64,000 bases of DNA. Origin: Candidatus Hydrogenedens sp. (GTDB taxonomy: Bacteria > Hydrogenedentota > Hydrogenedentia > Hydrogenedentales > Hydrogenedentaceae). How positions within the stretch are numbered: the stretch's first letter is position 1; every line of letters begins with the position of its first letter. The stretch lies in assembly GCA_049968235.1 (NCBI GenBank), contig JBMFRC010000001.1, forward strand, positions 96,001 through 160,000. Reading direction: 5' to 3'. The notes beneath the pieces are model-generated. The model was not told the origin of the DNA and searched no databases. It saw only the letters and a program-made list of their open reading frames with translations. Both the position numbers and the translations under genes were made by a program. This document shows positions 10,678 to 43,372 of the stretch, piece after piece.

Positions 10678-10689
10678 TTTTTTCCTACC

Positions 10690-11202
10690 TTATTTTTGCA
10701 TTTCTAATGTGAATCTTCTTCCATATTGTTCCGAATATATAACAACTGTTTTATCTTCAGGATTAACCTGTTCAAGAATAAACTGTTCAAATTCTTCACC
10801 TTCATCATACCATTTTGTTGTAGACCGGGTACGAAGTTGTGCTCGCCTCCGTTCTCCCACCTGGCGAATATTAAGTAAAGTAATTCCAAGGTCTTTGGCT
10901 GTAATTTCTTTTGAACCCGTAGAACCTGTAGATTCACCGGCAAAATACCAGAAGGGATTTTCTCTCCATAGAGAGGCATAAGTCCCGGGTATTGATGAGA
11001 GAGGAGGTGAAGGTGGCACAGGTGGTTTAAGTTCATCGGGGACCTCCTTCCGAGGAGGAGAATAAACTTCTTCTTTTTCCGGTGGAGGTGGATATGCAAT
11101 TACATATACCCGGTATCCTAAAATTCCTACCAGAATAAGTAAAACAAATCTTTCTTTGTTCCACCAGAACCATATTCCTATTTTTTGTATTTTGTCTATC
11201 AT
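10690..11202 (-). CDS. pilP: PilP-like pilus assembly protein with an N-terminal TM helix, a proline-rich linker and a C-terminal beta domain.
   Basis: It sits between the pilO-like and pilQ genes. The TM helix is FVLLILVGILGYRVYVIAY and the proline-rich segment is PPPPEKEEVYSPPRKEVPDELKPPVPPSPP. The C-terminus LLNIRQVGERRRAQLRTRSTTKWYDEGEEFEQFILEQVNPEDKTVVIY resembles the PilP/GspC-HR fold pattern, in which an R-rich strand is followed by a 'G...F..V...D.VV.' motif. Confidence 0.45.
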   Translation of the reverse strand: MIDKIQKIGIWFWWNKERFVLLILVGILGYRVYVIAYPPPPEKEEVYSPPRKEVPDELKPPVPPSPPLSSIPGTYASLWRENPFWYFAGESTGSTGSKEITAKDLGITLLNIRQVGERRRAQLRTRSTTKWYDEGEEFEQFILEQVNPEDKTVVIYSEQYGRRFTLEMQK

Positions 11203-11211
11203 AGTATATAT

Positions 11212-12183
11212 TTAATTTGTATATAAAATATATCGTTTAAACCATTTCCATGCTTTTGCAAAAAAACCTGCTTGTTCAGCAGAAGTATCTTTATTTACGG
11301 ATTGTCGTCTTTGTCCACCTGCTCCCATTTGTGTCTGATATTGAAGTTGAATATCAATACTCACCTCCTGAGGAGGTTTGTAATTTGCTTGTGAAATAAC
11401 CATTTCTATCTGGAGCAAAGGCTCTACATTATAAGCGATATAGGGATACTGAATTCTAAGGGCATTGATATGAAAATAACGGTCCGCTAATCGTAATTTC
11501 TGCTCTACAAAATTTACGAAATCTTTCATTGTCATATTACAGCGGACTCCAAACACAAAAAACGATAATAATTTCTCAAAATCGGGATGCTGTGAAATAG
11601 GAGGCCAGAAAACAATATCATCTATACTTACCATTTTGGAATCCAAAAGGTATTCACACATCTTGATACCAAAGGCGAGTTTTGCCAACTGTCTATTTAC
11701 TAATTCTTCCGTAACATCTGTTCTTGATATTTCATCAAGACTAAGTACTCCTAAAGATTTTCGTATATCCTGAGGGAACAGGTCATACCGACCCATCTTT
11801 TCTCCTACTTTTTCATACAGTTGTTTTACCATTTTTTGTGCTTGTTCTTCATACCAGAATTTTAATATAACACCTTCTTTAGGGGGAACTTCATGGTCTG
11901 TCCAGTTACTCAGATTAAAGAAGGAAGACCTTTTCTTTAAGGCATCTTCCCAGGGTATTACTTGGGCTCGCCATTCACGAATTAATACTTCGGGGTCTGT
12001 TCGTGAAAAGGTCTGTTCTAAGTCTTTCAGTGCATTTTCATATGCTTTTTTTAAATCTTCATCTTTCTTATAGGCTGTGAGTTGTTTCTGTAAGAAGAAA
12101 TAGTAAACACCTGTAAAAAGGAGGAATGAAAGGAGTAGAACGGTAATATAGATAAGGGTGCCTCTTGAAATAGTTATATTCAT
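11212..12183 (-). CDS. pilO: PilO-like bitopic inner-membrane protein, assigned by position and topology.
   Basis: It has an N-terminal TM helix (LIYITVLLLSFLLFTGVYYFFL) and then a coiled-coil region. It lies between pilMN and the pilP-like gene and overlaps pilMN by 4 nt. No family-specific motif was recognised, and at 323 aa it is longer than a typical PilO. Confidence 0.35.
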   Translation of the reverse strand: MNITISRGTLIYITVLLLSFLLFTGVYYFFLQKQLTAYKKDEDLKKAYENALKDLEQTFSRTDPEVLIREWRAQVIPWEDALKKRSSFFNLSNWTDHEVPPKEGVILKFWYEEQAQKMVKQLYEKVGEKMGRYDLFPQDIRKSLGVLSLDEISRTDVTEELVNRQLAKLAFGIKMCEYLLDSKMVSIDDIVFWPPISQHPDFEKLLSFFVFGVRCNMTMKDFVNFVEQKLRLADRYFHINALRIQYPYIAYNVEPLLQIEMVISQANYKPPQEVSIDIQLQYQTQMGAGGQRRQSVNKDTSAEQAGFFAKAWKWFKRYILYTN

Positions 12184-14270
12184 GACCCTGCTCCTCCTCC
12201 GGTGGGTGCTAAATCTTTTGCAGACACCCGTTCAAACTGCACTGTGATTATAAAGGTAAACAAATTTTGGCCGGTTGCTGAAAATGCTGCTGTCTGTCCT
12301 GTCTGCTGGGATAATGCCCCCAATCGTTGTTGACCCCCAAAACTTCCTGTTCCTGGAGCAGAACTACCTTGAAACGCAGACTGTGCATTATATAAAGAAC
12401 TCCAGGGAGTTACCTGTACGCTGGCTTCAGAAAAGTAAACTTCTTTAATTCTTAAAACACCTTCCGAAAGATTTAACGAGGCTTTCTTCAAATTATCCAC
12501 AAAACTTTTAATGATAGTATCCGAAGTCGCTAACCCTGTTATACGAAATCCATTTGAACGAGGTAGAGGTGGTGCCTGTTGTGTTCCCGGTGATTGCTGT
12601 GTTGTTGGGGGGGGAGGAACGTTATCTCTTCTAAAAAGCCCTCCACCACCTGTTCCGCCCATTCCTACCATAGGTCCATGTGAACCTATTCCGGGGAAGC
12701 CTGAAATATTAACTGGAGTTTGTTGTTGCGTTGGTATACCCATAGCCGGGATATTCCTGCCTGCTGGCATAGGTTGCCCTGCTTGCGGTTGCTGGATAAA
12801 AACCGTTTCGATGGAACTAAACCATATTCCGTCTTTATCGGTTCGGGGAGGTCTTGCGGATAGAACCAGAGACATTTCATCCAACCAATATCTTCTATTA
12901 TAAACCGCTTTATCCAGTGCCTTTACTTTGTTTTCTAAGATTTTAATTTCTGCCTGTGCCTTACTCAATTCCTGTTTTAGAGGAGACACAATCGTTGGAT
13001 TCTGGGCTACTTCGGGGTCGTACATTCGCACATATCGGCGGAGTTCTTCTATTCTAGCCTTGACAAACTTATTCTGTGATGCATGTACAGGAATCACAGA
13101 TGCCATTATCAAGGCAAGGGTAATCATGGACAATGCCCAGTAAATGGCTTGTTCTTTTCTCCTTCGTATTTCTATGATACGCGGGGGAATAAGATTAATT
13201 TCTAATGCGGTTGTTTCCCAATTACGGAGTGCTAATCCCAAAACGACGCAACTTCTTTCAGGATGTTGAGCAATGGATTGTGCATCAGGACCGATTGTAA
13301 TACCACTGAGAGGCTGGGCAATTCGCACATCTATCCCTAAGGCACGCTGGAGGAATGGCACAATATTCCGAAGAGCACATCCTCCTCCACATAAATAAAC
13401 TCGTGTTACCTGTCCTCCACCGGGAAGTGAACGGAAATAGGAAAAAGAACGTTGAATTTCGTTTACAAGACGGTTCAATACGCGTCCAATGGCTTCTCCT
13501 CCTTTACCGTCAATTTGAGGATTCCCTGTAGGTGCGAAGCCTTTTTCACATTTAATTTTCTCCGCTTCCTCAAAAGGAATATTGAAAGTATCTGCAATAG
13601 CCTGAGTAATATCATTTCCACCGATATTTAATGTTCTTGTATTACGGAAAATGCCGTCGCGTTCTACAACAATATTTGTGGTGGAAGCACCAAGGTCAAT
13701 TACTGCGACGCATTCACTATGTGCATGAAGTTCCCCGTTATATTTGAGCCAACTATACGAAGCGAAAGGAATAACATCCACAATGTCAGGACTTAATTTT
13801 AACCCTTCCACAATAGATAAGTATTTATCAACCACATCTGTTTTGATGGCAACCATCAGAACTTCATAACCCCCTCCTTCTGGATGGTCTAATATCTGAT
13901 AATCAATGGCTATCTGTTTCAAATCAAATGGAATTTGTTGTTGAATTTCATATCTAACAATCTGGTCTACTTTCCTCTCCGCTACGGGAGGAAGCGAACG
14001 AACACGAACAAATACGGATTGACCCGGAACGGCTAACATTAATTTTCTGGTTTTTACTTTTGCCTGTTTTAATAGTTCTGCAACTGCTTTCTTTCGTAAA
14101 TCTTTTCGTTCCTCTTCATCCATCCGAAAATCATTCGTTACAGGTTTCTCAAAATATTTTATCAACTGCAGTCCACTTTTTGTTTTCTTAAATTCGCAAA
14201 GACGAACCGCAGAAGTTCCTATCTCAATGATTACTCTCTTTTTTCCTTTTCTTGTCGTATATACTGACAT
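12180..14270 (-). CDS. pilMN: Fusion of PilM (actin-like ATPase fold) and PilN, with a C-terminal Gly/Pro/Gln/Thr-rich low-complexity tail of about 250 aa.
   Basis: PilM hallmarks are RVIIEIGTSAVRLCEF, VAVIDLGASTTNIVVERDG and VYLCGGGCALRNIVPFLQRALGIDVRIAQPL. The PilN hallmark EINLIPPRIIEIRRRKEQAIYWALSMITLALIMASVIPV is followed by a coiled coil. The tail begins QPMPAGRNIPAMGIPTQQQTPV and ends ...GSFGGQQRLGALSQQTGQTAAFSATGQN. Confidence 0.75.
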   Translation of the reverse strand: MSVYTTRKGKKRVIIEIGTSAVRLCEFKKTKSGLQLIKYFEKPVTNDFRMDEEERKDLRKKAVAELLKQAKVKTRKLMLAVPGQSVFVRVRSLPPVAERKVDQIVRYEIQQQIPFDLKQIAIDYQILDHPEGGGYEVLMVAIKTDVVDKYLSIVEGLKLSPDIVDVIPFASYSWLKYNGELHAHSECVAVIDLGASTTNIVVERDGIFRNTRTLNIGGNDITQAIADTFNIPFEEAEKIKCEKGFAPTGNPQIDGKGGEAIGRVLNRLVNEIQRSFSYFRSLPGGGQVTRVYLCGGGCALRNIVPFLQRALGIDVRIAQPLSGITIGPDAQSIAQHPERSCVVLGLALRNWETTALEINLIPPRIIEIRRRKEQAIYWALSMITLALIMASVIPVHASQNKFVKARIEELRRYVRMYDPEVAQNPTIVSPLKQELSKAQAEIKILENKVKALDKAVYNRRYWLDEMSLVLSARPPRTDKDGIWFSSIETVFIQQPQAGQPMPAGRNIPAMGIPTQQQTPVNISGFPGIGSHGPMVGMGGTGGGGLFRRDNVPPPPTTQQSPGTQQAPPLPRSNGFRITGLATSDTIIKSFVDNLKKASLNLSEGVLRIKEVYFSEASVQVTPWSSLYNAQSAFQGSSAPGTGSFGGQQRLGALSQQTGQTAAFSATGQNLFTFIITVQFERVSAKDLAPTGGGAGS

Positions 14271-14304
14271 ATCTTGTTTTTATCTATTCCTTGTATGTAA
14301 TCAT

Positions 14305-14332
14305 ATTATTTTACTATATCTTTCAATTTCAA
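14305..14332 (-). promoter_or_regulatory. Candidate sigma70-like promoter for the pilMN-O-P-Q operon on the minus strand, with -35 TTGAAA and -10 AATAAT.
   Basis: The reverse complement of 14327-14332 (tttcaa) is TTGAAA. After a spacer of about 16 nt, the reverse complement of 14305-14310 (attatt) is AATAAT. The boxes lie in the 254-nt AT-rich intergenic region upstream of the pilMN start at 14270. The call is weak because AT-rich DNA yields many such matches. Confidence 0.25.
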
Positions 14333-14524
14333 GTAAATTCTTTTCAACATTTCATTTTTTACACTTCTAATATCCTATGTTAATAATTGTATTACAAATA
14401 ATCTTTAAAGTCAAGAAAATTATTGACAAAAATAATTTATTTTTTTACCTATCCAATTTTTCTTGACATATTATTTTAATACATTTTTAATGTATATTAC
14501 ATCAAATATATTGCTGGATGGAAA

Positions 14525-15922
14525 TTACTTCTTCTGTGCAGATAAATTTTGGGATAAGTCTTTTACACATCGGAAGCCATAATCTGAACGATTTGAATCC
14601 ATTCTGTCAAAATGACGACGGGCACATCTTGCGTCAAATTTTTCTGTCATAAAGGAACCTCCCCTTAACACACGATAAATTTGCCCATACTCTTTTCGGA
14701 TATACTGATTTCCTTCATATCGCTGATACCAGTCTGAAACCCATTCATATGCATTCCCTGCCATATCAAAACAGCCATAAGGTGAAACGCCTCCAATATA
14801 ACTACCAATAGGGACAGGCATGTCAAGATTTTTTTCTTTTGTGTTACATAAATCTAATGAGAATTCGTTTCCCCATGGGTATTCTCTACCATCTTCACCA
14901 CGAGCGGCTTTCTCCCATTCAATTTCGGTGGGTAATCTTTTCCCCACTCTTGTCGCATATGACACAGCCTGGTCCCATGAAACACCCGTTACAGGGTAGC
15001 GCTCTTGTCCTTTGGGGAAAGTATACTCTGGAAAAACTTTTTTAAATTCTTCATTTGTTACTTCGTATTTATCAATATAAAATGCAGGAACAAAAACTTT
15101 TTTTCTTGGTGCTTCATCGGGAGAACGTTCATTTTCACCAAAAATAAATTCACCTGCTGGGACCAATACCATTCCTGGGGGGGTTTCTCCTTCTTTTAAT
15201 ACAAGTGTAATAGTTTGCTCTTTGTTTGGTTGAATAACAACTTTTGAATGTTCTTCAATAAAACCATCTGCAGAAATTGTGATTAAATATTCACCCGGCG
15301 CAAGTTGCAATTGTAAGGGTGTCTTTTGTGATTGAGGGACATTATTAATCCGAACAGTTCCACCTGTGGGACGAGATAGAATATTTATCGTTCCTTCCAT
15401 AGGTTTCAAGATATATTTTATTGGGTAGTGAAAATCTTCACGGACTTCTAAATCACCCTCAACAGGATAGTAATCTGCCAGTTGCAATTTATATGTTTTA
15501 TGTCCAATTTCTACAGGATATCGGAAAATGGGGGTATTTCCTATCTTCACCCCATCCAGATAAACTTCGGCTCCTGAGGGTTCGGTTTCAAAATTAATAT
15601 ATCCCTGTAACGGCTTTAATTGTAATAGATATTGAGAATGTTCTCCGGGACGAAGAAGCAATGTTTCCACTGTTCGTTGATAATGTTCCTTTTTTAATAT
15701 TACTTCGAGAGAACCGGGAGGGAGATCTGTCAATGTCAGAGGAGTAACTCCTTTTTCCTCTCCAAATACAATAACCGTTGCTCCCTGTTCTGGTGCAGTG
15801 TCTATTGTAACACTGCTTAATTGTTGTCTTTTCTTTTCAGAGGAACACGATAAAACAAGAGATACAACGACAATCCAACCTATACCCCATACTACAGCCT
15901 GCTTCATATTACTGTTAACCAT
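14525..15922 (-). CDS. Lipoprotein with PEGA-like beta domains and a C-terminal formylglycine-generating-enzyme (FGE-sulfatase/SUMF1, DUF323) domain.
   Basis: The lipobox-like sequence is SLVLSCSS. The FGE signature is GEFIFGENERSPDEAPRKKVFVPAFYIDKYEVTNEEFKKVF...YPVTGVSWDQAVSYATRVGKRLPTEIEWEKAARGEDGREYPWGNEF...LRGGSF. The N-terminal half has repeated PEGA-type modules (GATVIVFGEEKGVTP..., AEVYLDGVKIGNTP..., GTVRINNVPQSQKTP). Confidence 0.7.
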   Translation of the reverse strand: MVNSNMKQAVVWGIGWIVVVSLVLSCSSEKKRQQLSSVTIDTAPEQGATVIVFGEEKGVTPLTLTDLPPGSLEVILKKEHYQRTVETLLLRPGEHSQYLLQLKPLQGYINFETEPSGAEVYLDGVKIGNTPIFRYPVEIGHKTYKLQLADYYPVEGDLEVREDFHYPIKYILKPMEGTINILSRPTGGTVRINNVPQSQKTPLQLQLAPGEYLITISADGFIEEHSKVVIQPNKEQTITLVLKEGETPPGMVLVPAGEFIFGENERSPDEAPRKKVFVPAFYIDKYEVTNEEFKKVFPEYTFPKGQERYPVTGVSWDQAVSYATRVGKRLPTEIEWEKAARGEDGREYPWGNEFSLDLCNTKEKNLDMPVPIGSYIGGVSPYGCFDMAGNAYEWVSDWYQRYEGNQYIRKEYGQIYRVLRGGSFMTEKFDARCARRHFDRMDSNRSDYGFRCVKDLSQNLSAQKK

Positions 15923-15948: not shown

Positions 15949-15971
15949 ACAATAATAATAATAATAATAAT
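15949..15971. repeat. (AAT)n / (ATA)n trinucleotide microsatellite of about 7-8 units in the 75-nt intergenic region upstream of the FGE-domain gene.
   Basis: The sequence reads acaataataataataataataatatac. It lies 27-50 nt upstream of the start codon of the FGE-domain gene on the minus strand. Confidence 0.8.
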
Positions 15972-15997
15972 ATACTAATAAATTGTGTATCTTATTT

Positions 15998-18900
15998 TCA
16001 TTCTCGCTGGAACATTTTTATTCTTTGCTCTTCTTTGGGTTGAGAAGGTGCAGTAATAGATCTTTCACTACTTCCTGCAGGAGGATATATTGTTACTGTA
16101 ACTTTTGCAGGAGTAGTATCCGCTACTAACGCTCCTGTTGTCGTATCCTGAACAAAGGCACGAACTACAAAATCATATTTCACTTCTCGTTTTCTAAATC
16201 CACCTTCAGGAGAGCCTTCATCTCCCAATCGGTCATTAAATACACCTGAACCACACTGAGTCGGTGGTAAATTTAAAAATTCAGGAGTTGATGTATACCA
16301 ATTTAAGTTGAATCGAGTACTTGCCTCATTGGGAGATAAGAAATCGGATGGGATACAAATCTCTGCAGTAGTATCTCCATATAACATCGATGCTGTTCCG
16401 CCTGCTACTAAATTAGAATCCTCAAATATTTGTATATCAAACCCTATTCTTCCAGAAACAAATCCTTCTGAAGGCAGGATACAAGACATATTTAATTTTA
16501 CTTCAATACGATAATCACAGGCATTTTCTAATGCAGGCAAAGGAACTCTTCGTGAGGAGCCAAATTCTCTTTCTCCAAAGTTATAATTTATAAATCTCCA
16601 TGTAGTTGGGTCAGCGGTAGAACGGTTCCACCAGGAGTTTATATCTAATTTAGTATCAATATCGAATTCACAGGGGTTACGCCAGATACAGAATGGGACA
16701 TTGTTCCCCGTTATTGTGCCTAATGAGTTAAATCTATTTCCGAACAAAATATTTGGGATTGGTTGGACATTTCCAGCTTCATCTGCACCAATAATTGTTG
16801 CCATTAAGAGGGCGCCACAATACCGTTTATCACTCAGAATATCATTAAGTGTTGTGATTGAGCCATCAGCGAACACTATTGGGGTATTCTTATCCATACT
16901 TTCACGATTAATAATCCAACCCCATCGACCTACAAATCTATCTACAGCCTCCCAGATAGAAGTTTCATAATTGAATGGGTCTATCGCAGACCATATACGA
17001 ATACCAAAAATAGGAAGGCAGGGGTCAGAATTTACAGGTTTATCCGATACACTTCTTGTCAACTTCCATTGTATATGTGGGTCCTTGTCCCACGCACCTA
17101 TCCGTGGAGCGGAGATAATTTCTATGACAGGGTCTCTCATCCACCATAATTCGAGAGCATCCTGTTGAGCAGGATTTTCTACCACTAAATTGCCCGACAA
17201 ATCTTTAACTAAAAACTTCATACGAATATGCCAATCCAAACCGAAACCAAGATTGAACCATCTCCATTTAACTAACGCAGACTGCCATGGTTGTGTATAT
17301 TCTGTTTGAGATGGGTCTGTTGTAGCAAAATATTCAACACCTGGATTCGATGTGTATGAAAGAACCCGACCTATATCGTTTAATGGAGCAATAAACGCAC
17401 ATCCCAGTCCTCTAAAAGGTTCAAGTCCTGTATATACAGGTCCATTTGTGAGTAAATCTATTATTGGCGTAACAGTAGTTGTAGATACATTGGACCTATT
17501 TGTAATAAATCCAGCAACTTCGACAATCCTCGGCGAGCCATTATATTCTGGATATGGGTCAGAGTAACCTGCTTGCAATATATATTCAAGAGGTGATTGA
17601 GGTAGATTATTGAAAAACATTTGTGCTGTCGGTGAAGTTTGATTACTTATTGTCCCATAAGAATATGCCAGAGGATTAAGAACTGCAGGACCCCAATTGG
17701 GTGGATAACTAAATTGAGATGGTGGAGAGATAACATCATTATTTTGTATAACGAATCCTACTGCAGTAGCATCATACAAATCATTTCTTAAACGCGGTGG
17801 GACCGTATCAATTACGAATTCTGTATCTTCTAAATAAAAGTTTATTCTATATTCTTGATTGGTTCCAATACCCATCAAAGTTTGATTTACTCGTAAATAA
17901 ATTCTCGCTCTACCATTTGTTGTGGATAGCACTCCATCTGTATCTGTTACAAATAATGAATCCATTGTGAACACACTTCTTCCTCTTTGACGAGTAGTAT
18001 CTATCGGGACAACCACTTGTTTTAATTCTGTTGGAAGTTTATTTAATTGTGATAACGGATTAGGATTATTTTTAACCAGAGGGACATATTCTTCGGGTAC
18101 GAGGTATAAGGTAGCATCATCAAGAGTTTCTCCCTGAATTCCTACTTCTACGGTAAATTCATTTCCGATACCTATATCTCTTTCCCTACCAGTAGCGCTA
18201 CGAGGAACTGTAGGACTTACATTACAATAACTCCACAAAAGTTCTGCACCTCCAATAATTACTTCATCGGCACTTACTTGAATGTTACGGATATCCCGAA
18301 CTTCATTTTCAAAGTCCGTATAAGGGGAGGGACTGGCACAACTTGTGAGACTTAAATAGGGTATAAATATATTTGGGACATAATTCAGAACTGCTTCGAG
18401 AGAGACCCGTGACGGGATAGGAGTTATCAATTTTCCTATCCATGGGCTATCATAGAAATGAACGGAAAGAGGGTCTATCGTTATAGGCGTTCCTACTTCT
18501 GTAACGCCCGTAATGATTGGAGGATACACAAGATTCCACCCACTTATTAGACTGGCTCCTGGCTCACATACCAATCCACCACCGGTGTTGTTCCAGACTA
18601 AGGTTGCCATAACATAGGTGCTTCCCGTTCCTTTGCTTTCAACACCTATACCTCCATTAGAATAAATTGTGCTTTGTACTATTGCAGTGGTTCCATTATT
18701 CAATACACCATCGTTCAAACTCCCATAGATAACCGTTTGTAAAATGGAAGCCTTTCCATCTGGCATAACCACAACGCCATCATCAAGTTTAGGACCTATA
18801 AAAGAACGACTCACTTTACTCATTCCTTGTATATTTAGGATACCAGCACTACCCTGGGTAAGGGAAAGGTTCTCAATGCATAAATTACCATTGAGGTGAA

Positions 18901-21900
18901 CTTCTATCAATGGGAATTTATCTCTTGCAATTGCAATATCATCGACCATAAATATAGATTGGTCAAGAAACCTACAATTTTCGTAAACGAAATACAGAGT
19001 ATGGGGATTCGGTAATACTAATAACAATGGGATTTCCTGCAGAGACCAATCTCCTTCTTCAATACTTCCGGCATCCTTAACCCATACAGGTGTTCCCGTT
19101 GTGTCATCCCAGTAAACTTTTAACTTCGTTTGCTCGGGCGAAGTTCCTTTTTCAACACGGACATAAAATTGGAGTTTTGTTGCACTGGGAGGAATGTTTA
19201 TCCCTGTTTGCCATAGCATACGTTTATCGAGTTTTGGACTCTTTAATTGAGCATACCACACACCGGTGTGAGCATCAATAAAACCTGTTGGACCGCCCTG
19301 AATTATCTGGCTTTTATCGGGAGTAGCATCCCATGGTGTTGCTAATCCGGATTCAAATCCGGGGTCTAACAGTATGTTATCCAAACACACTATTGGAATA
19401 GCAGGCATAAGTATTTCATAACCTAAACATACATCATCAATAAGAAAACGCACAGGAGTTTTATCACACTCTGTCATTGCCACTCGAATTGTAAGACTAT
19501 GCGGTTGCATATCCAAGTAGGGTAATAATTCATTATCTACCATTACCAATGTATAGTTATTCCAGTAGAAAGTATCATTGGCTCTTATTTTCTTTATGAC
19601 ATGGTCATCCACTAAAATTTCTAATTCTGTGTTTGATGTACTGGTTGCATCAAGGATTTTTAACCAAAAACTCAATACAGGTAATGGATTAACAGCACCA
19701 AATCGTAAGGCTCGTGTTCCTGTTATAGGGGGTTCTGGCAGAATGCAATCAACAGGATATGCTTTGTCATAACAATGAATAGGTCCCATAAGTAAAGCGG
19801 TAGCATTTTTGTTCCATGCGGAATCGGGATTCGTTTCAAATGAAGGATTCTGCACTGCATTATCAGGACATACCCCAAATGGGTCTATCAGGACTCCTAA
19901 TTCACCATAAGGGCTTACGCAGAAATCATCAAATAGAATAGATGAGCCTGGATTTAATGAAAAGATTCTTGCTTTTATATGAATTGAAAAACTACTAATA
20001 CTCTCTTCCAGTAACGGAGGAACTAACCATCTCTCTATTTTTGTCCAGACTCCATCTACTGGCATCCCTGAAACCCGAGAGTCATAAACAATTTTCGTTA
20101 CTATGTTCTCATCATCATCTAACCATACCTTAAAGAAATCTTGACTTCCGTCTACATTTACAGGTTTAACTTGAAAGGAAATCTTTGCTGGAGGAACTCC
20201 TCCCAATTCTGCACAGAAAGGAGCCTTATTTCCGCCTGTGGGTTTAATTATAGTTGCGATAGTTCTTTCGGGTATAGGAGGGTTGGTAACTAATACCCAG
20301 GACTCATCATTTCCTGCTTCAAAATTTCCATTGGGAACACTAATGCCATTCTCAGGCAACCTTAAATTCATTAAAGGACCCACAAGAAAACGGACATCAT
20401 CTATATCAAAAGTGGTCGTATTAAAATCAACACTATCGGGTGTAAGAGCACAGGGAGAAACGGTGCTTTCAATATGAAAAGTATGTTTCGCATTATCATT
20501 TGTTAAAGGTGATGGTATTTTAACTAAAATACGGGTGTATTCTCCGGCGTTTGGAATTAAATCGGGTCTATATTCAGGGATAGGTATCCAGTTACCAGGG
20601 CTAATCTCCGCAAATATCTCTGAAGCCATTAACATACTATCAAAATAAAACCTTAATATATCTGTTGTTTTTCCACTGAATATTTTTATTTTTATGAACA
20701 TCTCTACCCAGACTTCCCTCGGGGATATAGGAGAAGGACCTAAAATAAGGCATCTATCAGGAGGGAGACCCAACGGGTCATTTCCAATAGACCAATTCCC
20801 TTCGCCTGACCAGCCGATACATCCAACATCATCAAAGCTACCACAGACAATTGGAATTTCGGCAGTACTCATTCCCATATCTAAAAATATACGGAAATCA
20901 TCCAGATAAACAGTATTTTCACCTATACCCAATTTTGAAATCCGAAGCACAACGATAGGTACATCTAATGGATTATACTGTTGAATTAATGAAGTAACAT
21001 CGATATTCCATGTTATCCAATTCATTGGATTGGGTATTGCGGACAAAGGAATGGTATAAGTAGTAGATTCGTTCAACATTTCAATATATATTTCGACTTT
21101 ATCTCCGGAATCCACAGGGTCCGCACTACGCATAATTTCAAATTTCAGTTGTGCGGAAACAAGGTTCGGAAGGTCAATAGGCAATTGAGCAGAAAGAGAA
21201 AGGGTATTCTCCATATAGGAGATACCTGTTGGTTCTGTGCCTTTAGGGAAATCTATAGGTTGTGTCTGAAGTATATCTATAGCAGAGAGAACCTTAGGAA
21301 AAGTAATATCTTGCCAGACTTCCGGATAACCTGCTATGAGATAGGGGTCTCCTGATAAAGGGTCTTCTGTGAACTGGAAATTTTGATATATCTGGTCAGG
21401 TTCAAAGGGTTCATTTATTCCCTTAAACGAGGCTAAATGTGTGGGACTTAAAGCAAGAGTATTTTCCTCAATAATAGAGTAGGCCGGGTCATCCGGGTCT
21501 GGTGGGTCTACAAGTATATTCCAATCTGTCGAAGGAGATAGTTCAAAATTACTATTTTTTATAACTCCTTTGAATATATTATTTCCCATGATAATGACAT
21601 CCGTAGGTAAGATAGCAGAAGAAGGAGTTGTAGGGTTAGGAACACCTTTAAGCGTAATATCGCGATTGATGATAATCGGTTGTTTAATTTCATAAATGGT
21701 AGGAGTAGTAGTATCTGCCTCAATATGAAAAGTAGTTTCTAATGGGTTATTTAAAATAATATCAATGATATTATCTCCGGGATGTATAATAGTCTCTGCT
21801 TTTATACTTGAATGTAATGTTATGAATAGCAGTAGGAAAAATAAAGGGATATTTTTTGATAACTTCTCATTTACAGAATCCGTTTTATAACCCCTTTTTC

Positions 21901-21919
21901 GTCTTATTTGTTTTTTCAT
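15998..21919 (-). CDS. Giant secreted protein (1,973 aa) at the pilY1 position of the minor-pilin operon. It is a candidate pilus-associated adhesin.
   Basis: It has a Sec-type signal peptide (NIPLFFLLLFITLHSSIKAETI) and a long uninterrupted ORF immediately downstream of the PilX_N-type giant gene, separated by a 3-nt gap. No catalytic motifs were recognised. The PilY1-like role is inferred from synteny only. Confidence 0.5.
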   Translation of the reverse strand: MKKQIRRKRGYKTDSVNEKLSKNIPLFFLLLFITLHSSIKAETIIHPGDNIIDIILNNPLETTFHIEADTTTPTIYEIKQPIIINRDITLKGVPNPTTPSSAILPTDVIIMGNNIFKGVIKNSNFELSPSTDWNILVDPPDPDDPAYSIIEENTLALSPTHLASFKGINEPFEPDQIYQNFQFTEDPLSGDPYLIAGYPEVWQDITFPKVLSAIDILQTQPIDFPKGTEPTGISYMENTLSLSAQLPIDLPNLVSAQLKFEIMRSADPVDSGDKVEIYIEMLNESTTYTIPLSAIPNPMNWITWNIDVTSLIQQYNPLDVPIVVLRISKLGIGENTVYLDDFRIFLDMGMSTAEIPIVCGSFDDVGCIGWSGEGNWSIGNDPLGLPPDRCLILGPSPISPREVWVEMFIKIKIFSGKTTDILRFYFDSMLMASEIFAEISPGNWIPIPEYRPDLIPNAGEYTRILVKIPSPLTNDNAKHTFHIESTVSPCALTPDSVDFNTTTFDIDDVRFLVGPLMNLRLPENGISVPNGNFEAGNDESWVLVTNPPIPERTIATIIKPTGGNKAPFCAELGGVPPAKISFQVKPVNVDGSQDFFKVWLDDDENIVTKIVYDSRVSGMPVDGVWTKIERWLVPPLLEESISSFSIHIKARIFSLNPGSSILFDDFCVSPYGELGVLIDPFGVCPDNAVQNPSFETNPDSAWNKNATALLMGPIHCYDKAYPVDCILPEPPITGTRALRFGAVNPLPVLSFWLKILDATSTSNTELEILVDDHVIKKIRANDTFYWNNYTLVMVDNELLPYLDMQPHSLTIRVAMTECDKTPVRFLIDDVCLGYEILMPAIPIVCLDNILLDPGFESGLATPWDATPDKSQIIQGGPTGFIDAHTGVWYAQLKSPKLDKRMLWQTGINIPPSATKLQFYVRVEKGTSPEQTKLKVYWDDTTGTPVWVKDAGSIEEGDWSLQEIPLLLVLPNPHTLYFVYENCRFLDQSIFMVDDIAIARDKFPLIEVHLNGNLCIENLSLTQGSAGILNIQGMSKVSRSFIGPKLDDGVVVMPDGKASILQTVIYGSLNDGVLNNGTTAIVQSTIYSNGGIGVESKGTGSTYVMATLVWNNTGGGLVCEPGASLISGWNLVYPPIITGVTEVGTPITIDPLSVHFYDSPWIGKLITPIPSRVSLEAVLNYVPNIFIPYLSLTSCASPSPYTDFENEVRDIRNIQVSADEVIIGGAELLWSYCNVSPTVPRSATGRERDIGIGNEFTVEVGIQGETLDDATLYLVPEEYVPLVKNNPNPLSQLNKLPTELKQVVVPIDTTRQRGRSVFTMDSLFVTDTDGVLSTTNGRARIYLRVNQTLMGIGTNQEYRINFYLEDTEFVIDTVPPRLRNDLYDATAVGFVIQNNDVISPPSQFSYPPNWGPAVLNPLAYSYGTISNQTSPTAQMFFNNLPQSPLEYILQAGYSDPYPEYNGSPRIVEVAGFITNRSNVSTTTVTPIIDLLTNGPVYTGLEPFRGLGCAFIAPLNDIGRVLSYTSNPGVEYFATTDPSQTEYTQPWQSALVKWRWFNLGFGLDWHIRMKFLVKDLSGNLVVENPAQQDALELWWMRDPVIEIISAPRIGAWDKDPHIQWKLTRSVSDKPVNSDPCLPIFGIRIWSAIDPFNYETSIWEAVDRFVGRWGWIINRESMDKNTPIVFADGSITTLNDILSDKRYCGALLMATIIGADEAGNVQPIPNILFGNRFNSLGTITGNNVPFCIWRNPCEFDIDTKLDINSWWNRSTADPTTWRFINYNFGEREFGSSRRVPLPALENACDYRIEVKLNMSCILPSEGFVSGRIGFDIQIFEDSNLVAGGTASMLYGDTTAEICIPSDFLSPNEASTRFNLNWYTSTPEFLNLPPTQCGSGVFNDRLGDEGSPEGGFRKREVKYDFVVRAFVQDTTTGALVADTTPAKVTVTIYPPAGSSERSITAPSQPKEEQRIKMFQRE

Positions 21920-21922
21920 TTT

Positions 21923-24900
21923 TTAATCCTCCTCATATCGGGCTGTGGGCACGCTCCTTTCATATATAACACTTGCTCTTGCTTCTGATTGAACAACAAA
22001 TTCGTCATTTGTCCGATAGCTATAACAACCGTCATTATTTCCATCTACACCGTAACCTAACTGTACCAGTGCTGTTATTTTGAAGACATCGGACCGTAGA
22101 CTAACATGGTCTGCAACAGATTCATATCTCGGGAGAACATCTGCTATCCTGCCGTTATAGTTTGTATTTACACTTAAAGGTAATAGATATTTAGAATTGA
22201 TTGTATTTGCAAGTTCTATGGGTGACAAATAATAGCGACCATCCGCATATTCCGGACGGTTTGTCATTAATAGATAAGATAATTGGAAAGCAGATAAAAT
22301 TGTGTCACTTACATTGTCAGCATAAACGGCATTGGTTGGTGGAATTGGGTTAACTCCATAAACAGGATTATTCAGGTCTTGATTTTTAGGGAGGATATTT
22401 GACCTATAATAGAAGCCTGGTAGACACATGGAAGATGCGAATATTCTCTTCTGACTTCCATCTGTATAGATATAGGGTCCGATGGTATTTACATTAATTT
22501 TGTGAAGGGAAGATTTCGCAGGGACTAAAGTAATATGTGTAAGAAAACACGGAGTATCACCTATGTTTCTTACTCGCAATGCTACAAATTTTTGTGTAAC
22601 TCGAACCATCTGGGGCTGCCAGCTGGCTGCGGCTTGCTGCCCATATAATATTATACCATCTTCATTCGGAGAAAAGTCAACAACATCTTCGTAATACCCC
22701 CCAACTTCTGTCCGATACCAGTCATCTGGATGTGTCAAACCTGTCTCAATTGTAGAACCTCTGGGCTTTAATCCTCTTGCTTTTGCAGGGTCTGTAATTA
22801 TTTCAAGAGCCAATCGTACCCTTGTTGTGTCATATTCTTTATTAATCCATAATTTGCCAAATTCTTGAGAGAATAATTCGTAAGGTGGATTACCCGAAGC
22901 ATGTAGTTGTTCATCATATTGTTGTAGTCGTCTTAATTGTTTTTCATTTACTACATTAATATAGACATAATAATCTCCATTTTCTAATCCATCATTAACA
23001 TCCCATACGAACAGTGCCTCAGGACGATTTTGTTCGGGATAAACGCTTCTATAACTACTTACATAGGCAAAAATGCGTTTAGGAATTTCCCATCGCTGAG
23101 CAATATCATTAATGTCTATTTGAGGTCTACCAAAGGCACTGTTGTTATTAAATAACCAACTGCCATTAGGTTGTGCATTGAATAAAGTGTTATATGGTGT
23201 AGGAAATGTTCCATTCCATAATGAGCCATCAACAAATCGGGGATAATTATATATTTCGCCTGGAAGCATAAATAGAAATAATGGGACCCATGCCTCAGGA
23301 TAGGTATTGCTGGCTAACTCACAGCGTAGTATATCTGTAAGGTTCGAACCGGAAGGGAAAACATCTGTTTCCGCAGGATTAGGTCTTATCGGAATAAAAT
23401 CTGCGGTTCCGACAGTAAGGATTTTTTCTGCTATTGTTATCATTGAAGAAGCACCCTTCAGAACTCTGCTTAATTCGTCCTTACCTTGAAGTTGACAGGC
23501 AAGGACATTTGCACTTGTCCATACCTGACGCCAGAATGTTTCACCTCCAACAACGGGATACAACGTTAAGTTCTGACGGTTTAAATCAAACAAGTATCTG
23601 TAATCTGGATTTGGGAATACCTGCCTTAATCGGTATAAGGAGTATAAGTATTCTCTCTGGATTGGTATTCCAACCTGGCTTAATGTCCCTGTATAGATTG
23701 TTCCTACATCTCGCCTCTGTTCTATATTCCAGTAAGGATACAATAGAGTGATGCTCCTGCCATTAATTACAGGAGAATCAGGTAAGGAGACGATTGGGAA
23801 TGAAAAATCTTTTCCTGATAGAGCAATTTCTGTATACGATTTGCCTAAGGGTGTCCCTCGATATGTATTGACAACAAAATCAATGTCCCTCTTATCACGA
23901 TAGGGATTATTATTCGTATACTGGAACAACGGGAAATTATTGGGTGCCACATTATCCAACATAACCAGTACGAGTTGTTCCAGATAGTGAGGTGATTCTT
24001 CCCAATCATCATAGAATCCATCTGTTGCCTCCCAACGGTTCGATAATCCAAAACGGTCTCCACTTAATTCTGGACTCTTGCGATTCAGGGAACGATAGAA
24101 ATCCCATAACATACAATCGGGTATCCACCAGGAAGAAAAATCGGCATTTAATTGCATACTACTATTGGGTGCAGGAAGTATGTCATCGATACAGCGGTTT
24201 ATAACATCATATTCATTATAAGAAACTCCATCTACCTGATTACCCTTAGTATCATATAAAGCCACGACGACACAATCGCCGGGATTCCATCGTCTTTCTA
24301 CAAAATATTTCCATTGGGGAGGGTCGTTGTCTGTTCCGAAGTAAGGCTCTATAAGATTGGGATTGCCAATATAATTGAACCCTGTTGTTATATTAATAGG
24401 TTGAACCTGGTCGTAAGGGTCAGTTATAAAGTCAACATCTACATTTCCTCCTATAACAGACATGTCTTTCAAATGGAAAATCGGCATCATACCTTGCTCA
24501 TAAGACCCATATCCATAAACCCTACCGTTAGTATAGGTGGTACCAGGTTCTACTCTACCTTCGTCAACTCCTTCGTTAAAGAAAACATTTAAAGGATTAT
24601 TAAAATCTGTCGGTCTATCGTCAATAACACCGTTTTGATTATTATCCACACCATCTTTTTCCAATGTCCCTAATATATAACTTCCCATACCTGTTAAATA
24701 ACCACCATCTCCATCATTGTCGTATCCATCATGCTCTGGATAATCCGGTAACATGCCTCCTTGCAGGACCAATTTAGCAAGGTCATTTAGCGTGGTTATT
24801 TCTTCTGTTTTTCTGCGTTCTGTATTTTCTCCATCAATAAGCGGAAACTCAACAGCATATAATGGGACAATCCTATCCCATGCTTTTCTGGGTCCAACTA

Positions 24901-27900
24901 TATTAAAATTGTTATCATTAGGAGTACTTCGTATTTCATTATCCGCAGGATTGTCTCCCGGTGTTCCATCTCCATTATAATCTGTAAAATCCTCTTCAAG
25001 ACCATTATTTATATATTCCCTGTGGAATACATTATTTGTTTCGTTCAGGGCCATAAACGGCGTCGTTATACCTACAAGGGGTTCTAACTCTGGAGGTACA
25101 GGAGCGGTAGGAATCACATCACAAAGTCCTATACCATTCCTTTTTATCAGAGATGCAGGGGTTAAATTGGGGTCCCGATAATGGTCAAATTTATCTCCAA
25201 TAAGATCTGAAGAAGAATCAAATGTCAGTAATAATCTCCCTTTGGGAGCAATAATATATCTATTATTTACATCATTTTCATCACCTATTTTAGCTGTTAC
25301 TTTAAAGGGGTCTGTGCGAACCCCTGAGTTATCTCGGGGAATACCAATCTCAATAGTATAGCCCGTTAAATCGATAGGATTATTTGAAATATTAGTAATT
25401 TCGATATACTCATGGTCGGGTTCCTGGCTGAAATCGAGAAAGTTTAATGCAATAGGTTCGTTATTAGGATTCTGTTCTAACCAAAAAGCAATACATACTG
25501 CATAATCGTTGGCTTGTCCATCAGCAGGGGTATATGGAGGAACTGTAATTGTAAAGGTCTTTCCACTAAGAGGTTGATTTTCAGGTAGAATTCCATCCAT
25601 CCAATAATAGTTAGGTGGAATTAATGTTCCTGATTCTAATTGTCCGGGTAAAAATACCATGCCTGTAGTCTCTCCACGAGCATTAACACCTATCCAGGTA
25701 TCCTGAACTCGCTGGAATACTGCATCATTAGTAACAATGGTGGGGTCTGCAAAAACATCGTCGAGAATAGAAGGTTCTATTAAAGTATCATCTGTGGTAT
25801 CCGCAGGATTATTTACATTGATAGGACAATATTTAATTGCGTATTTTATTCGTTTATTACTTCCACGTTGTAATGTTGGCTCTCCTGAAAGGTTTTGGGT
25901 ATTCAACATAAGATAATATCGACCTGCAGGTAAAGAATTTGTAGCACGGATTCGATACTCTACCACATTCGGAACACTAATTGTTTGTGGAGGAACTGTT
26001 GTCCTATCAATATATTGGAAAACAGGTAAGTTTGTTTCATAATAATTCCCTTTTCCCAATACATTATTATTGGCTAAATTCCATGGATTTGCTGGAATAA
26101 TGTCATGATTATTATCATCAGGGAAACGGTTACTCAGAGGTTCAAAATCAGTAAGGAATAAAGGGATTCCAGGTGGATAATTGGACCTATATGAATTATA
26201 AATGCTTTGATAAACAGGCACCTCCGCTTCTACTCTACGAACAGGTCTTACCATCAACTCGGTAATACGAATAGAGTCAACTCCAGCAACAGTATAGCTA
26301 ATAGAACGAAGGTCTTTCATAGGTGTTCCATCTTCACTGTTGGTCCCATTTTGTACTCGTTCTGACCACCAATAATCATTAATTACCCAATCAATATTAA
26401 ATTCTCCCAAAGTATTCTTAGCATATTGTTCTATTTCACGAAGTGAGAAATTCGATGGATGATAGCCTTTTTCATACGGGGACAATGAATTTATATTTTG
26501 GCTGGGAAGATAGACTCGTTTTTCTATTGAAGTCATCGGGTCGGGGACTTTTTCCGTAGTTAATCTTGTCTGTGCGACATCGGTATCACGTATATCTATC
26601 AGATTTACAGCTAACTGCATTGTTTTTAATACTGCATCCACAGGGAATACATAATTCGTTGTTGAATTGATTGCGGATATAGGTTCATTTGTGCCGTCAT
26701 CATAGTAAAAGAGGAAACCTACTTCATTTTTATCAGCACCAAACCATGTGTTCCATTCATGTTCATAACTCCGCAATCCTTGTGCGAAGTAATAAGCATC
26801 TTCTCCCATCGGCATTCTCCACGACATTGTATTGATACTGGGTACAGGTTTTTCTGATAAAAATATCGTTGATGCTAATTGCTGTGGAGTTGTGTAATTT
26901 ACATTCACCGGATTAATTCCTCTTAAAGAGGTGCCAAACTTCCGAATTTGAGTATTTTTTGATAAACCCATTGTGGTTATTACAGGCTTTACCTTTTCAA
27001 ATGCCTTTGTTCCTGGTGTCCCATAATCCGATAACTCACTAATCTGGTCGAGCGTGCTAATAATTCTGTCCCCTAATTCTCCGCTTTCATCTACATTGTT
27101 ATTGGTATTATTATCAACACGGTCTCTCTCTGCTAATTTGTTAACATAAGGCAATGTGTACTGAAATTCACCGGGTTCATCTATACCTTCCAAAATTCCC
27201 AGCAGGTCATTCACGCCATTATCAATAATTCCGTCTCCATCATCATCCAGTCCATTGGTAAATAGAAGAAACGCATTGGCATTGTCATCCACTGCCCCAT
27301 AACCCGGAAAAGCCACATCGTAATATAGGGCATTGGAATTCGTATTAAGAATATAGTCTGATTGCGAACTATCTATCTGCCCTCCGGGAGCACCGGTTAA
27401 TAAATTCCATAGTTTCCGCGCACGAATAACACCCATATCCGGTAAGTATCGAGTGTCCAGACCATAACCTATCAACCACGGAGATGAAATGCCCGGAATA
27501 AAATACGAATGAAACAATCTACTGGCAAGTAATGGATTCGGAGCAGAAAAATTAAAATCTATTGGATAATGCCCACCTGCAATATTTAGATTTACCTTTT
27601 TACTCTCATCCTCAATGTAAACAGCCATTCTTCCAACAAGGTCACAAACAGGTTCTCCAGTGTGTGTTATATGGATATAAGGAATTAGTCTTGTATAGTT
27701 TATAGTTCGAGTAATTCCTGCTATACCATCTCTATAAATCCCACGACCGGGAAAAACCTGCACACCGGGAAGAAATGGATTTCCCCCGGAATCTTTAAAT
27801 TTATTAATTTCTATGTAACTTGCTTCTCGAACAGCAGAAAATTTGGATTTATCTGCAGGGTTCCAATTACCGGGCATTGCAAACTTGGCAAAGCTATAAT

Positions 27901-31427: not shown

Positions 31428-31803
31428 TGAGCCTTACCTTAAAGGTTACCCGATACAACCCTTTACCCATAGGAACGCGTGATGCAGAAGCCCCATAATG
31501 TTGATATAGTTCATAAGCACTGGCGGTTGTTTCTATTTGCTGAAAGGCATTATCTTTTAACCATGAATTTAGACCTGTGGATAAAGCCCCGCCTACACGA
31601 ACACGACTCATTTCTGTTCGTGCTAAATTGGATATATTAGCATTTGCAGATGCATCAATTAATAATTTTTGTGCTGAGGGAAACAATGTGAATATTGCCA
31701 CCAATCCACCTGCAATAATAGCAAGGGCAATAACAATCTCTAAAATAGAGAAGCCTAATTCTTTATTTCTATAATTATTTGTATGTATTATATTTTTTTT
31801 CAT
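31378..31803 (-). CDS. pilV: PilV/GspI-like small minor pilin (141 aa).
   Basis: The prepilin N-terminus is ELGFSILEIVIALAIIAGGLVAIFTLF. It has the small size typical of PilV/GspI and sits between the FimU-like and PilW-like genes. Confidence 0.55.
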   Translation of the reverse strand: MKKNIIHTNNYRNKELGFSILEIVIALAIIAGGLVAIFTLFPSAQKLLIDASANANISNLARTEMSRVRVGGALSTGLNSWLKDNAFQQIETTASAYELYQHYGASASRVPMGKGLYRVTFKVRLNDGREERFVTYVTEQQ

Positions 31804-32684: not shown

Positions 32685-32766
32685 TTTATAACAAGTCTTT
32701 CATATTTAGAAGGGCAATGTATGTTCTACCTTCCCATACATTGCCCTTATATTAGTCAAATATTCA

Positions 32767-35005: not shown

Positions 35006-35022
35006 GGTTCCAATTCCTTTTT

Positions 35023-36801: not shown

Positions 36802-36831
36802 ATTACAAACTTTCTTTTATGTCTTCTTAAA

Positions 36832-37941: not shown

Positions 37942-37963
37942 ATATGTATCTCCTTATATTCAA

Positions 37964-40531: not shown

Positions 40532-40548
40532 TTTCTCTACCTCATTTG

Positions 40549-43364: not shown

Positions 43365-43372
43365 GGTAATTT

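What the first reader, a model, noticed from the sequence alone, without database searches (positions are those of the whole stretch)
15998..21919. A 1,973-aa Sec-secreted protein in the pilY1 position
This ORF follows the PilX_N giant after a 3-nt gap. It has a classical Sec signal peptide, as PilY1 proteins do, rather than a prepilin leader. It occupies the operon position of PilY1, the tip adhesin and mechanosensor. No known catalytic or adhesin motif was recognisable by eye. The protein is Asn/Thr/Pro/Gly-rich and predicted beta-rich. It may be a diverged, roughly doubled PilY1. Alternatively it may be a separate adhesin or cargo co-opted into the pilus operon.
Basis: inference. Interest (0 to 1): 0.6.

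Follow-up and report, generated by a model that had tools for sequence, protein, structure and literature searches.

The report
Non-PilY1 candidate pilus tip adhesin
This real, conserved gene encodes a huge secreted protein that sits where the pilus tip adhesin PilY1 would be but shows no detectable PilY1 domain; it belongs to an undescribed family whose near-invariant last ten residues suggest it plugs into the neighbouring giant tip pilin.

Summary
The ORF (15998-21919, minus strand, 1,973 aa) is real. It starts 3 nt after a 2,536-aa GspK-type pseudopilin that lacks Glu5, and it has a Sec-type leader. The organism is Candidatus Hydrogenedens.

PilY1 homology is not supported. There is no PF05567 match in the target or in 35 relatives, no conserved Ca motif, and no propeller hit. 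The C-terminal fold stays unresolved because the models were poor.

The protein belongs to an unannotated family of 85 clusters at 50% identity. The core is about 1,000 aa: signal peptide, a right-handed beta-helix and an ~830-aa C-terminal region. The target's extra ~880 aa are five jelly-roll (CBM-like) modules inserted into the beta-helix.

Sixty-eight of 69 representatives whose C-terminal 40 residues carry the motif core end in [DE]-E-Q-P-[VI]-[KR]-x-[FY]-x-[RK]-E-COOH. The giant pseudopilin lies immediately upstream in every locus of the main clade.

My best reading (about 0.55) is a functional analogue of PilY1/MshQ. It would be a modular, probably glycan-binding tip adhesin, docked by adding its C-terminal beta-strand to the giant pilin. 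Docking is inferred, not shown. Three members of one subfamily are orphan genes.

The parts
15998..21919 (-). Target ORF, 1,973 aa. Member of an unannotated family (85 clusters at 50% identity).
21797..21919 (-). Sec-type signal peptide, aa 1-41 (basic n-region, IPLFFLLLFITL core, IKA|ET site).
   Evidence: read from the sequence, no predictor run
21569..21796 (-). N-terminal start of the right-handed beta-helix, aa 42-117 (IIHPGDNIxDII...ITLxG). Conserved at the N-terminus of many family members.
   Evidence: (pLDDT 73-84)
18920..21568 (-). Insertion of five diverged jelly-roll (CBM/galactose-binding-like) modules: aa ~116-348, 352-516, 522-672, 680-836, 842-1000. Most (M1, M3-M5) start N-[GPS]-x-F-E...W (M2 has the degenerate GSFDD) and all end D-D-[FVI]. 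Absent from the ~1,000-aa core members.
18485..18919 (-). Right-handed parallel beta-helix body, aa 1001-1145.
17303..18484 (-). C-terminal region, first part, aa 1146-1539. Conserved in most family members. Fold unresolved (beta-rich islands of moderate confidence at aa 1255-1345 and 1470-1590).
16070..17302 (-). Most conserved family domain, aa 1540-1950. Motifs: DLAGN, P.F.W.L.R, GADEAGNVQ, LDT...FWHNR, FG.STRIPLP, DRLGD[DE]G, RRR.V.Y, TPA..FTV.
16001..16033 (-). Extreme C-terminal peptide EEQRIKMFQRE-COOH. Family consensus [DE]-E-Q-P-[VI]-[KR]-x-[FY]-x-[RK]-E. Candidate donor beta-strand.
21923..29533 (-). Giant K-type (Glu5-less) pseudopilin, 2,536 aa; proposed docking partner. Conserved C-terminal INVNT ... 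RSDVF.I..VQ.GY ... EF...AE...YER, then a short variable polar tail.
29640..33639 (-). Four Glu5 prepilin-type genes in G-H-I-J order (290, 294, 141 and 595 aa).
33764..39805 (-). PilB-like ATPase, PilT-family retraction ATPase, second PilB-like ATPase, and PilC/GspF platform protein.
7420..15922 (-). Downstream operon genes: PEGA + FGE-sulfatase-fold protein (14525-15922), PilM-N fusion (12180-14270), two unannotated genes (11212-12183 and 10690-11202), and a TPR-secretin (7420-10677).

Best explanation
The protein is a non-PilY1 tip-associated adhesin of a retractile type IV pilus-like filament of Hydrogenedentota. It would be exported to the periplasm by Sec. Its extreme C-terminal peptide (EEQRIKMFQRE) would then add as a beta-strand, in trans, to the small pilin beta-sheet of the adjacent giant Glu5-less K-type pseudopilin. 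That pseudopilin appears to lack the terminal strand that T2SS GspK supplies in cis. This step would mount the protein on the I-J-K initiation complex, so that it is carried out through the secretin at the filament tip. The beta-helix and the lineage-variable array of jelly-roll (CBM-like) modules would then bind a surface ligand, most likely a glycan.

Shown here: gene reality, Sec-type leader, domain layout, family breadth, synteny, and the invariant C-terminal peptide.

Inferred: tip location, strand donation, and the ligand class.
For: 1. Tight, conserved linkage to the K-type giant. There is a 3-nt gap with the SD inside the upstream gene. The giant lies immediately upstream in the window and in L001-L013, L015, L017-L019 and L021, including orthologues at only 25-30% identity. 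In L019 the J-like, giant and family-member genes are followed by unrelated genes, not machinery genes. This links the protein to the minor pilins rather than to PilMNOPQ.

2. C-terminal peptide. Of 69 representatives at 50% identity whose C-terminal 40 residues contain the motif core, 68 end in [DE]EQP[VI][KR]x[FY]x[RK]E. In 66 of 69 the chain stops 4-7 residues after the K/R, although overall identity is 25-37%. The preceding linker is variable.

3. Precedent. The last ~10 residues of PilC/PilY1 donate a strand to PilK/PilX. The same is predicted for MshQ, a non-PilY1 protein encoded just downstream of mshDOP. T2SS GspK supplies the strand in cis (PMC13533445).

4. The giant lacks Glu5 (G|AALVL), like the window's own GspK. 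Its conserved C-terminal strands end at ...VIYER, followed by a short, variable, polar tail. The canonical GspK next door ends in a hydrophobic PFRILDWKVIK-COOH after a long linker.

5. Adhesin-like evolution. The target and the giant retain 25-36% identity where PilMN, PEGA-FGE and the secretin retain 48-64%. The number of jelly-roll modules varies from 0 to 7 or more between orthologues.

6. A PilT-family ATPase is in the operon (461 bits against a cutoff of 319). A complete separate T2SS lies next door.

7. Fold evidence. The module array matches tandem jelly-roll and carbohydrate-binding proteins (reelin repeats, BcsB, CBM22; E 1e-9 to 1e-4). The beta-helix matches adhesins, tailspikes and lyases.
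Against: No structural or experimental evidence exists for docking or for a tip location; multimer modelling was not available. The fold of the conserved C-terminal ~830 aa is unresolved (pLDDT below 50 over most of it).

The 'missing strand' in the giant is read from motifs, not from a structure. The giant's similarity to GspK is statistically weak (NCBIfam E 0.008; hhalign E 0.04).

Three members of one subfamily (tail DEAP[VI]REFSR) are orphan genes with no pilus genes nearby.

A beta-helix plus CBM architecture is also typical of secreted polysaccharide lyases and hydrolases.

In the target's own clade the otherwise invariant Pro of the motif is Arg or Lys.
Confidence: 0.55

Rival explanations
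1. It is a secreted cargo: an exoenzyme or glycan-binding exoprotein released by this T2SS-like machine. The gene would be kept in the operon for co-expression, and the C-terminal peptide would act as a recognition or loading signal rather than a permanent anchor.
For: Beta-helix plus CBM-like arrays are typical of polysaccharide lyases and hydrolases; the top fold matches include PL3 pectate lyase, alginate lyases and epimerases, and phage depolymerases. The G-H-I-J-K pseudopilin order and the GspF-level score of the platform protein are T2SS-like. Orphan family members exist away from pilus genes.
Against: Residues conserved family-wide in the beta-helix are mainly Gly, Asn, Ser and Thr, with no conserved acidic or basic cluster. 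T2SS substrates are not known to carry a conserved linear C-terminal signal (own knowledge). The operon has a PilT-family retraction ATPase, and a complete canonical T2SS with its own candidate substrates lies next door. Strict adjacency to the K-type gene, including in a machinery-less cassette, fits a tip partner better.
Confidence: 0.2
2. It is a true but extremely diverged PilY1/PilC homologue, whose C-terminal beta-propeller is beyond the reach of sequence methods.
For: It has the same operon position, a Sec leader, a variable N-terminus with a conserved C-terminus, and a conserved extreme C-terminal peptide. The C-terminal fold was not resolved.
Confidence: 0.1
3. It is a periplasmic or outer-membrane accessory of the machine (for example a secretin- or ring-associated scaffold acting with the PEGA/FGE-sulfatase-fold protein) and is not exposed at the filament tip.
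For: It is flanked downstream by a GldK/PorK-like FGE-fold protein (E 1e-26, below the cutoff) that is conserved in most loci. The C-terminal region is conserved.
Against: Its divergence is far faster than that of the machinery proteins, and the number of modules varies. The PEGA-FGE gene is missing in L013, L015 and L019 while the giant-plus-member pair persists. Members occur in a cassette without machinery genes.
Confidence: 0.1

Closest known systems
PilY1 / PilC tip adhesins of type IVa pili (Pfam PF05567; PDB 3HX6)
   Same: Large Sec-exported protein encoded directly after the Glu5-less K/X-type minor pilin. It has a variable N-terminal part, a conserved C-terminal part, and a highly conserved extreme C-terminal peptide. 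The operon carries a PilT-family ATPase.
   Different: No PF05567 match in the target or in 35 relatives, no conserved Ca-binding motif, and no propeller detected. The N-terminus is a beta-helix with inserted jelly rolls rather than vWFA or DUF4114. The partner pilin is 2,100-3,160 aa long.
MshQ of the Vibrio MSHA pilus (predicted functional homologue of PilY1; PMC13533445)
   Same: A non-PilY1 large protein encoded immediately downstream of the I-J-K-type minor pilin genes, and predicted to dock through its extreme C-terminus.
   Different: No Pfam or NCBIfam model, MshQ models included, matched the target, although no MshQ sequence was compared directly. The domain composition and the phylum also differ.
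Tapirins of Caldicellulosiruptor (beta-helix cellulose adhesins encoded by the type IV pilus locus; PDB 6n2b)
   Different: The match is no better than to generic beta-helices. The host is Gram-positive, and no C-terminal docking peptide or K-pilin linkage is known for tapirins (own knowledge).
GspK, and CpaL/TadG or ComZ-type apical pilins with large insertions
   Same: These are apical Glu5-less subunits carrying a large functional domain. In them the terminal strand completes the pilin sheet.
   Different: Here the large functional load is split over two genes: a giant pilin and a separate Sec-exported protein. The strand is proposed to come in trans.

Membership tests
PilY1/PilC | Sequence match to the C-terminal PilY1 beta-propeller domain (PF05567), which defines the family (PMC13190605). 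| tested here: not met
   No hit at E<=10 in aa 1131-1973. None in 35 family members at E<=0.01. PDB profile searches found no PilY1.
PilY1/PilC | Seven-bladed beta-propeller fold of the C-terminal domain. | tested here: inconclusive
PilY1/PilC | EF-hand-like Ca-binding motifs 1-3 (common in the family, not universal). | tested here: not met
   None in the target. Across 75 members, motif 1 occurs in 2, motif 2 in 1 and motif 3 in 4, at non-homologous positions.
PilY1/PilC | Sec signal peptide rather than a prepilin leader. | tested here: met
   Read from the sequence, with the same pattern in relatives. No predictor was run.
PilY1/PilC | Gene directly downstream of the Glu5-less PilX/PilK-type minor pilin gene. 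| tested here: met
   3-nt gap after the giant. The giant lacks Glu5 and is fifth after four Glu5 prepilins. The arrangement is conserved in all main-clade loci.
PilY1/PilC | Extreme C-terminal ~10 residues dock by beta-strand addition to PilK/PilX. | tested here: inconclusive
   A near-invariant C-terminal peptide is present. Docking could not be modelled or measured.
MshQ | Sequence membership in MshQ-type models. | tested here: not met
   No Pfam family other than a weak Beta_helix hit, and no NCBIfam family at all, matched the target at the thresholds used. No MshQ sequence or model was compared directly.
Right-handed parallel beta-helix (PbH1 / pectate-lyase-like) superfamily | Beta-helix repeats seen by HMM and by fold. 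| tested here: met
CBM / galactose-binding-like jelly roll | Beta-sandwich jelly-roll fold of the inserted modules. | tested here: inconclusive
   Foldseek matches reelin repeats, BcsB and CBM22 tandems (E 1e-9 to 1e-4) but TM-scores are low and pLDDT is 57. There is no Pfam match. M4 and M5 are homologous to each other (hhalign 92%).
GspK/PilX family (upstream giant) | Pilin-like N-terminus without Glu5, plus T2SSK or PilX_N domain models. | tested here: inconclusive
   The Glu5-less N-terminus is met. NCBIfam GspK gives E 0.008, far below the cutoff. Pfam T2SSK and PilX_N are not detected. hhalign to the window's GspK gives E 0.04.

The most novel reading that the evidence does not exclude
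Hydrogenedentota build a two-gene 'mega-tip' of about 4,500 residues. It would pair a 2,100-3,160-aa K-type pilin with an unrelated, Sec-exported beta-helix/jelly-roll protein. That protein would be locked on by a new class of trans-donated C-terminal strand (...EQP[VI]Kx[FY]xRE-COOH). This would be an independent invention of the PilY1 solution, with swappable paralogues (cassette and orphan copies) serving as interchangeable tips.
Probability: 0.4. Interest if true: 0.7.

Novelty: new variant of a known kind. Interest (0 to 1): 0.55.

Why it matters
If correct, this adds a third, sequence-unrelated protein family to PilC/PilY1 and MshQ as users of C-terminal strand addition to the apical K-type pilin. 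That would support the recent proposal that this licensing mechanism is general across type IV filaments. The family offers a simple sequence signature: a secreted protein next to a Glu5-less pilin that ends in a conserved short peptide. Such a signature could be used to find tip adhesins in uncultured phyla. The work also gives a first functional handle on the pilus system of Hydrogenedentota, for which the paper search found no study. Finally, it defines an unannotated domain family of about 400-830 aa that current Pfam and NCBIfam libraries miss.

Tried and rejected
- AF2 on aa 1001-1973 and on aa 40-1140 used only 11-12 close homologues. Mean pLDDT was 49 and 57, so only the beta-helix and the jelly-roll cores were usable.
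- PDB sequence-profile searches gave nothing significant; the best was an FN3 domain at E 0.57.
- The search for homologous proteins with the diverse alignment A5 returned a single fragment, which looks like a failure of the word index. With P0035 it gave six unnamed relatives, so taxonomy beyond the record titles could not be established.
It worked with A6 through the pattern ADEAGNVQ, which biases the result towards members carrying that exact motif.
- BLASTP and hhalign of the giant's C-terminus against the window's GspK were not significant.
- hhalign among the five modules was convincing only for M4-M5.
- Sorting-signal readings of the C-terminus (PEP-CTERM, LPXTG, T9SS CTD) were rejected. 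There is no C-terminal hydrophobic segment and no NCBIfam hit.
- The (AAT)10 tract after the stop codon was considered as a phase-variation site and rejected, because it is not conserved in relatives.
Full report
**1. The observation.** The ORF is on the minus strand at 15998..21919, starts with ATG and encodes 1,973 aa. The preceding ORF (21923..29533, 2,536 aa) ends with TAA. Three bases later comes the ATG of the target, and GAGGAGGA sits inside the last codons of the upstream gene at Shine-Dalgarno distance.

The N-terminus (MKKQIRRKRGYKTDSVNEKLSKN / IPLFFLLLFITL / HSSIKA|ET) reads as a Sec signal peptide. There is no prepilin motif and no other hydrophobic segment. Composition is enriched in Pro, Thr and Asn but not in Gly.

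Twelve full-length homologues at 53-100% identity come from Candidatus Hydrogenedens MAGs and lie in identical gene order. The gene is therefore real and under selection.

**2. Surroundings.** The minus strand carries two systems back to back.

- Upstream is a complete canonical T2SS (GspC, D, E, F, G ... K, L/M; 40019-52731). It is preceded by a 2,765-aa PKD/TIG protein and an 805-aa matrixin-like protein.
- The target lies in a second system. This has a PilB-like ATPase, a PilT-family ATPase (461 bits against a cutoff of 319), a second PilB-like ATPase and PilC/GspF. Four prepilins with Glu5 follow in G-H-I-J order, then the giant and the target. Downstream come a PEGA + FGE-sulfatase-fold protein, a PilM-N fusion, two unannotated genes and a TPR-secretin.
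- Pfam does not call PilX_N or T2SSK in the giant. However, its N-terminus after the Gly is AALVL, with no Glu5, like the window's own GspK (VAIIL). NCBIfam GspK matches residues 6-69 weakly (E 0.008).
- The giant's C-terminal ~330 aa are the conserved part across distant orthologues. They carry INVNT, R.EH.DGRYY, RSDVF.I..VQ.GY and EF...AE...YER. These resemble the NINS, FRIYGDG and VRIETYVFR segments of the canonical GspK, but without statistical support.

I treat the giant as the apical K-type subunit. This is an inference from position and from the missing Glu5.

**3. What the protein is made of.** Pfam gives only a sub-threshold Beta_helix match at aa 1005-1118, and NCBIfam gives nothing.

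An exhaustive profile search with aa 1146-1973 found 85 clusters at 50% identity (63 at E<=1e-10). These proteins are 950-2,500 aa long and always carry the homologous region at their C-terminus.

Mapping a full-length profile onto them shows a core architecture of about 1,000-1,070 aa: signal peptide, a short N-terminal beta-helix start, the beta-helix body and the C-terminal region. This core aligns to target aa 1003-1946 starting at about residue 100 of the short members.

Target aa ~118-1000 is therefore an insertion. It consists of five modules; four begin N-[GPS]-x-F-E...W (M2 has GSFDD) and all end D-D-[FVI].

- M4 and M5 are clearly homologous (hhalign 92%, E 7.5e-7). The other pairs are only weakly similar.
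- The AF2 model of aa 40-1140 (pLDDT 57) matches tandem jelly-roll and carbohydrate-binding proteins: reelin repeats, BcsB and CBM22 pairs, at E 1e-9 to 1e-4.
- Other family members carry from 0 to at least 7 such modules.

**4. The PilY1 question.** PilY1/PilC proteins are defined by the C-terminal PF05567 propeller (PMC13190605).

- No PF05567 hit appears at E<=10 in the C-terminal 843 aa, nor in 35 diverse members.
- Family profiles find no PilY1 in PDB sequences.
- Ca motifs 1-3 are absent from the target and are not conserved in the family.
- The conserved C-terminal ~400 aa show two D-x-A-G-N motifs (DLAGN, GADEAGNVQ) and a weak FN3 match. I read these as beta-sandwich signatures; the D-x-A-G-N reading rests on my own knowledge of bacterial Ig-like domains, not on a test.

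The AF2 model is unreliable beyond aa 1145, so the fold is not settled. Homology to PilY1 is unsupported but not excluded at fold level.

**5. The C-terminal peptide.** Among the representatives whose C-terminal 40 residues carry the motif core, 68 of 69 end in [DE]-E-Q-P-[VI]-[KR]-x-[FY]-x-[RK]-E. In 66 of 69 the chain ends 4-7 residues after the K/R. The linker before the motif varies in sequence and length. In the target clade the motif is EEQRIKMFQRE, and it is invariant in nine homologues.

Ellison et al. (PNAS 2026, PMC13533445) showed that the last ~10 residues of PilC/PilY1 complete the beta-sheet of PilK/PilX in trans. They also showed that T2SS GspK supplies that strand in cis, and they predicted that MshQ, a non-PilY1 protein downstream of mshDOP, does the same as PilY1.

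In this window the canonical GspK ends, after a long low-complexity linker, in the hydrophobic PFRILDWKVIK-COOH. The giant and all its orthologues stop 9-14 polar, variable residues after ...YER. This is consistent with a missing terminal strand that the target could supply. It is a sequence-level inference only.

**6. Co-occurrence.** In orthologous loci down to 25% identity the order is giant, family member, (PEGA-FGE), PilMN, two small genes, secretin, KdtA.

The target and the giant are the fast-evolving pair (25-36% identity). PilMN, PEGA-FGE and the secretin keep 48-64%.

In L019 the J-like, giant and member genes are followed by unrelated genes, so the trio can exist as a cassette.

Against a strict linkage, three members of the subfamily ending DEAP[VI]REFSR are orphans.

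Record titles place the loci in Hydrogenedentota. Three are labelled 'uncultured Nitrospirales', but one of these (L008) has the same operon at 57% identity.

**7. Mechanism and rivals.**

- Best reading (0.55): a PilY1/MshQ-like tip adhesin of a retractile filament. It would be mounted by trans strand addition to the giant K pilin and would present a beta-helix and CBM-like modules to a glycan or surface ligand.
- Secreted cargo or enzyme of the machine (0.2).
- A truly homologous but unrecognisably diverged PilY1 (0.1).
- A non-tip machine accessory acting with the FGE-fold protein (0.1).

The residues conserved family-wide in the beta-helix are mostly Gly, Asn, Ser and Thr, which gives no sign of a conserved active site.

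**8. Novelty.** No Pfam or NCBIfam model covers the C-terminal region, and sources annotate the protein only as 'hypothetical' or 'right-handed parallel beta-helix repeat-containing'. Full-text searches found no study of pili in this phylum.

I rate it a new variant of a known kind: the same job and probably the same docking principle as PilY1 or MshQ, done by an unrelated protein family paired with an exceptionally large K pilin. Interest is 0.55, because the mechanism is inferred and the decisive modelling could not be run.

Noticed in passing
window 40019-52731 (-), 52915-55332 (-), 55399-63696 (-): A complete canonical T2SS (GspC, D, E, F, G ... K, L/M) lies directly upstream of the pilus-like system. 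It is preceded by an 805-aa matrixin-like protein and a 2,765-aa PKD/TIG protein. The latter ends in a hydrophobic helix plus a KKKQTT tail, which looks like a C-terminal membrane-anchor or sorting signal.
   Followed up: partly
window 14525-15922 (-): A PEGA x3 + FGE-sulfatase-fold protein with an N-terminal hydrophobic segment. It resembles the T9SS ring lipoprotein GldK/PorK (E 1e-26, far below the cutoff). It is conserved between the target and PilM in most orthologous loci, but is absent in L013, L015 and L019.
   Followed up: partly
window 21923-29533 (-); L017 1707-9809; L018 1681-9942; L021 484-9972: The K-type pseudopilin is gigantic (2,100-3,160 aa) across the phylum, with a weak Lamin-tail-domain match. 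Only its N-terminal helix and its last ~330 aa are well conserved, which suggests a pilin fold split by a huge variable insertion.
   Followed up: partly
window 35023-36801, 37964-39805, 47328-49067 (-): Both PilB-like ATPases of the pilus system and the GspE of the T2SS carry an MshE-type c-di-GMP-binding N-terminal domain (61-64 bits against a cutoff of 38).
   Followed up: no
window 12180-14270 and 7420-10677 (-); 29640-33639 (-): The PilM-N fusion and the secretin best resemble the Akkermansia Amuc_1101 and Amuc_1098 families. The pseudopilins weakly hit the Verru_Chthon cassette proteins A-D. This hints at kinship with PVC-type pilus clusters.
   Followed up: no
L020 5581-12366; L022 1258-8166; L023 1925-5854: A subfamily of the target's family, with tail DEAP[VI]REFSR-COOH, occurs as orphan genes with no pilus genes within the available flanks.
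   Followed up: partly
L008 5425-9063 and 8978-11326: In one genome the orthologue is split into two overlapping ORFs (1,212 and 782 aa). This is either a frameshift (pseudogene) or an assembly error. The record is labelled 'uncultured Nitrospirales' although the operon is Hydrogenedens-like.
   Followed up: no
window 15951-15981: An (AAT)~10 microsatellite lies in the 75-nt spacer between the target's stop codon and the next gene. It is not conserved in six related loci, so it is probably just AT-rich spacer.
   Followed up: yes
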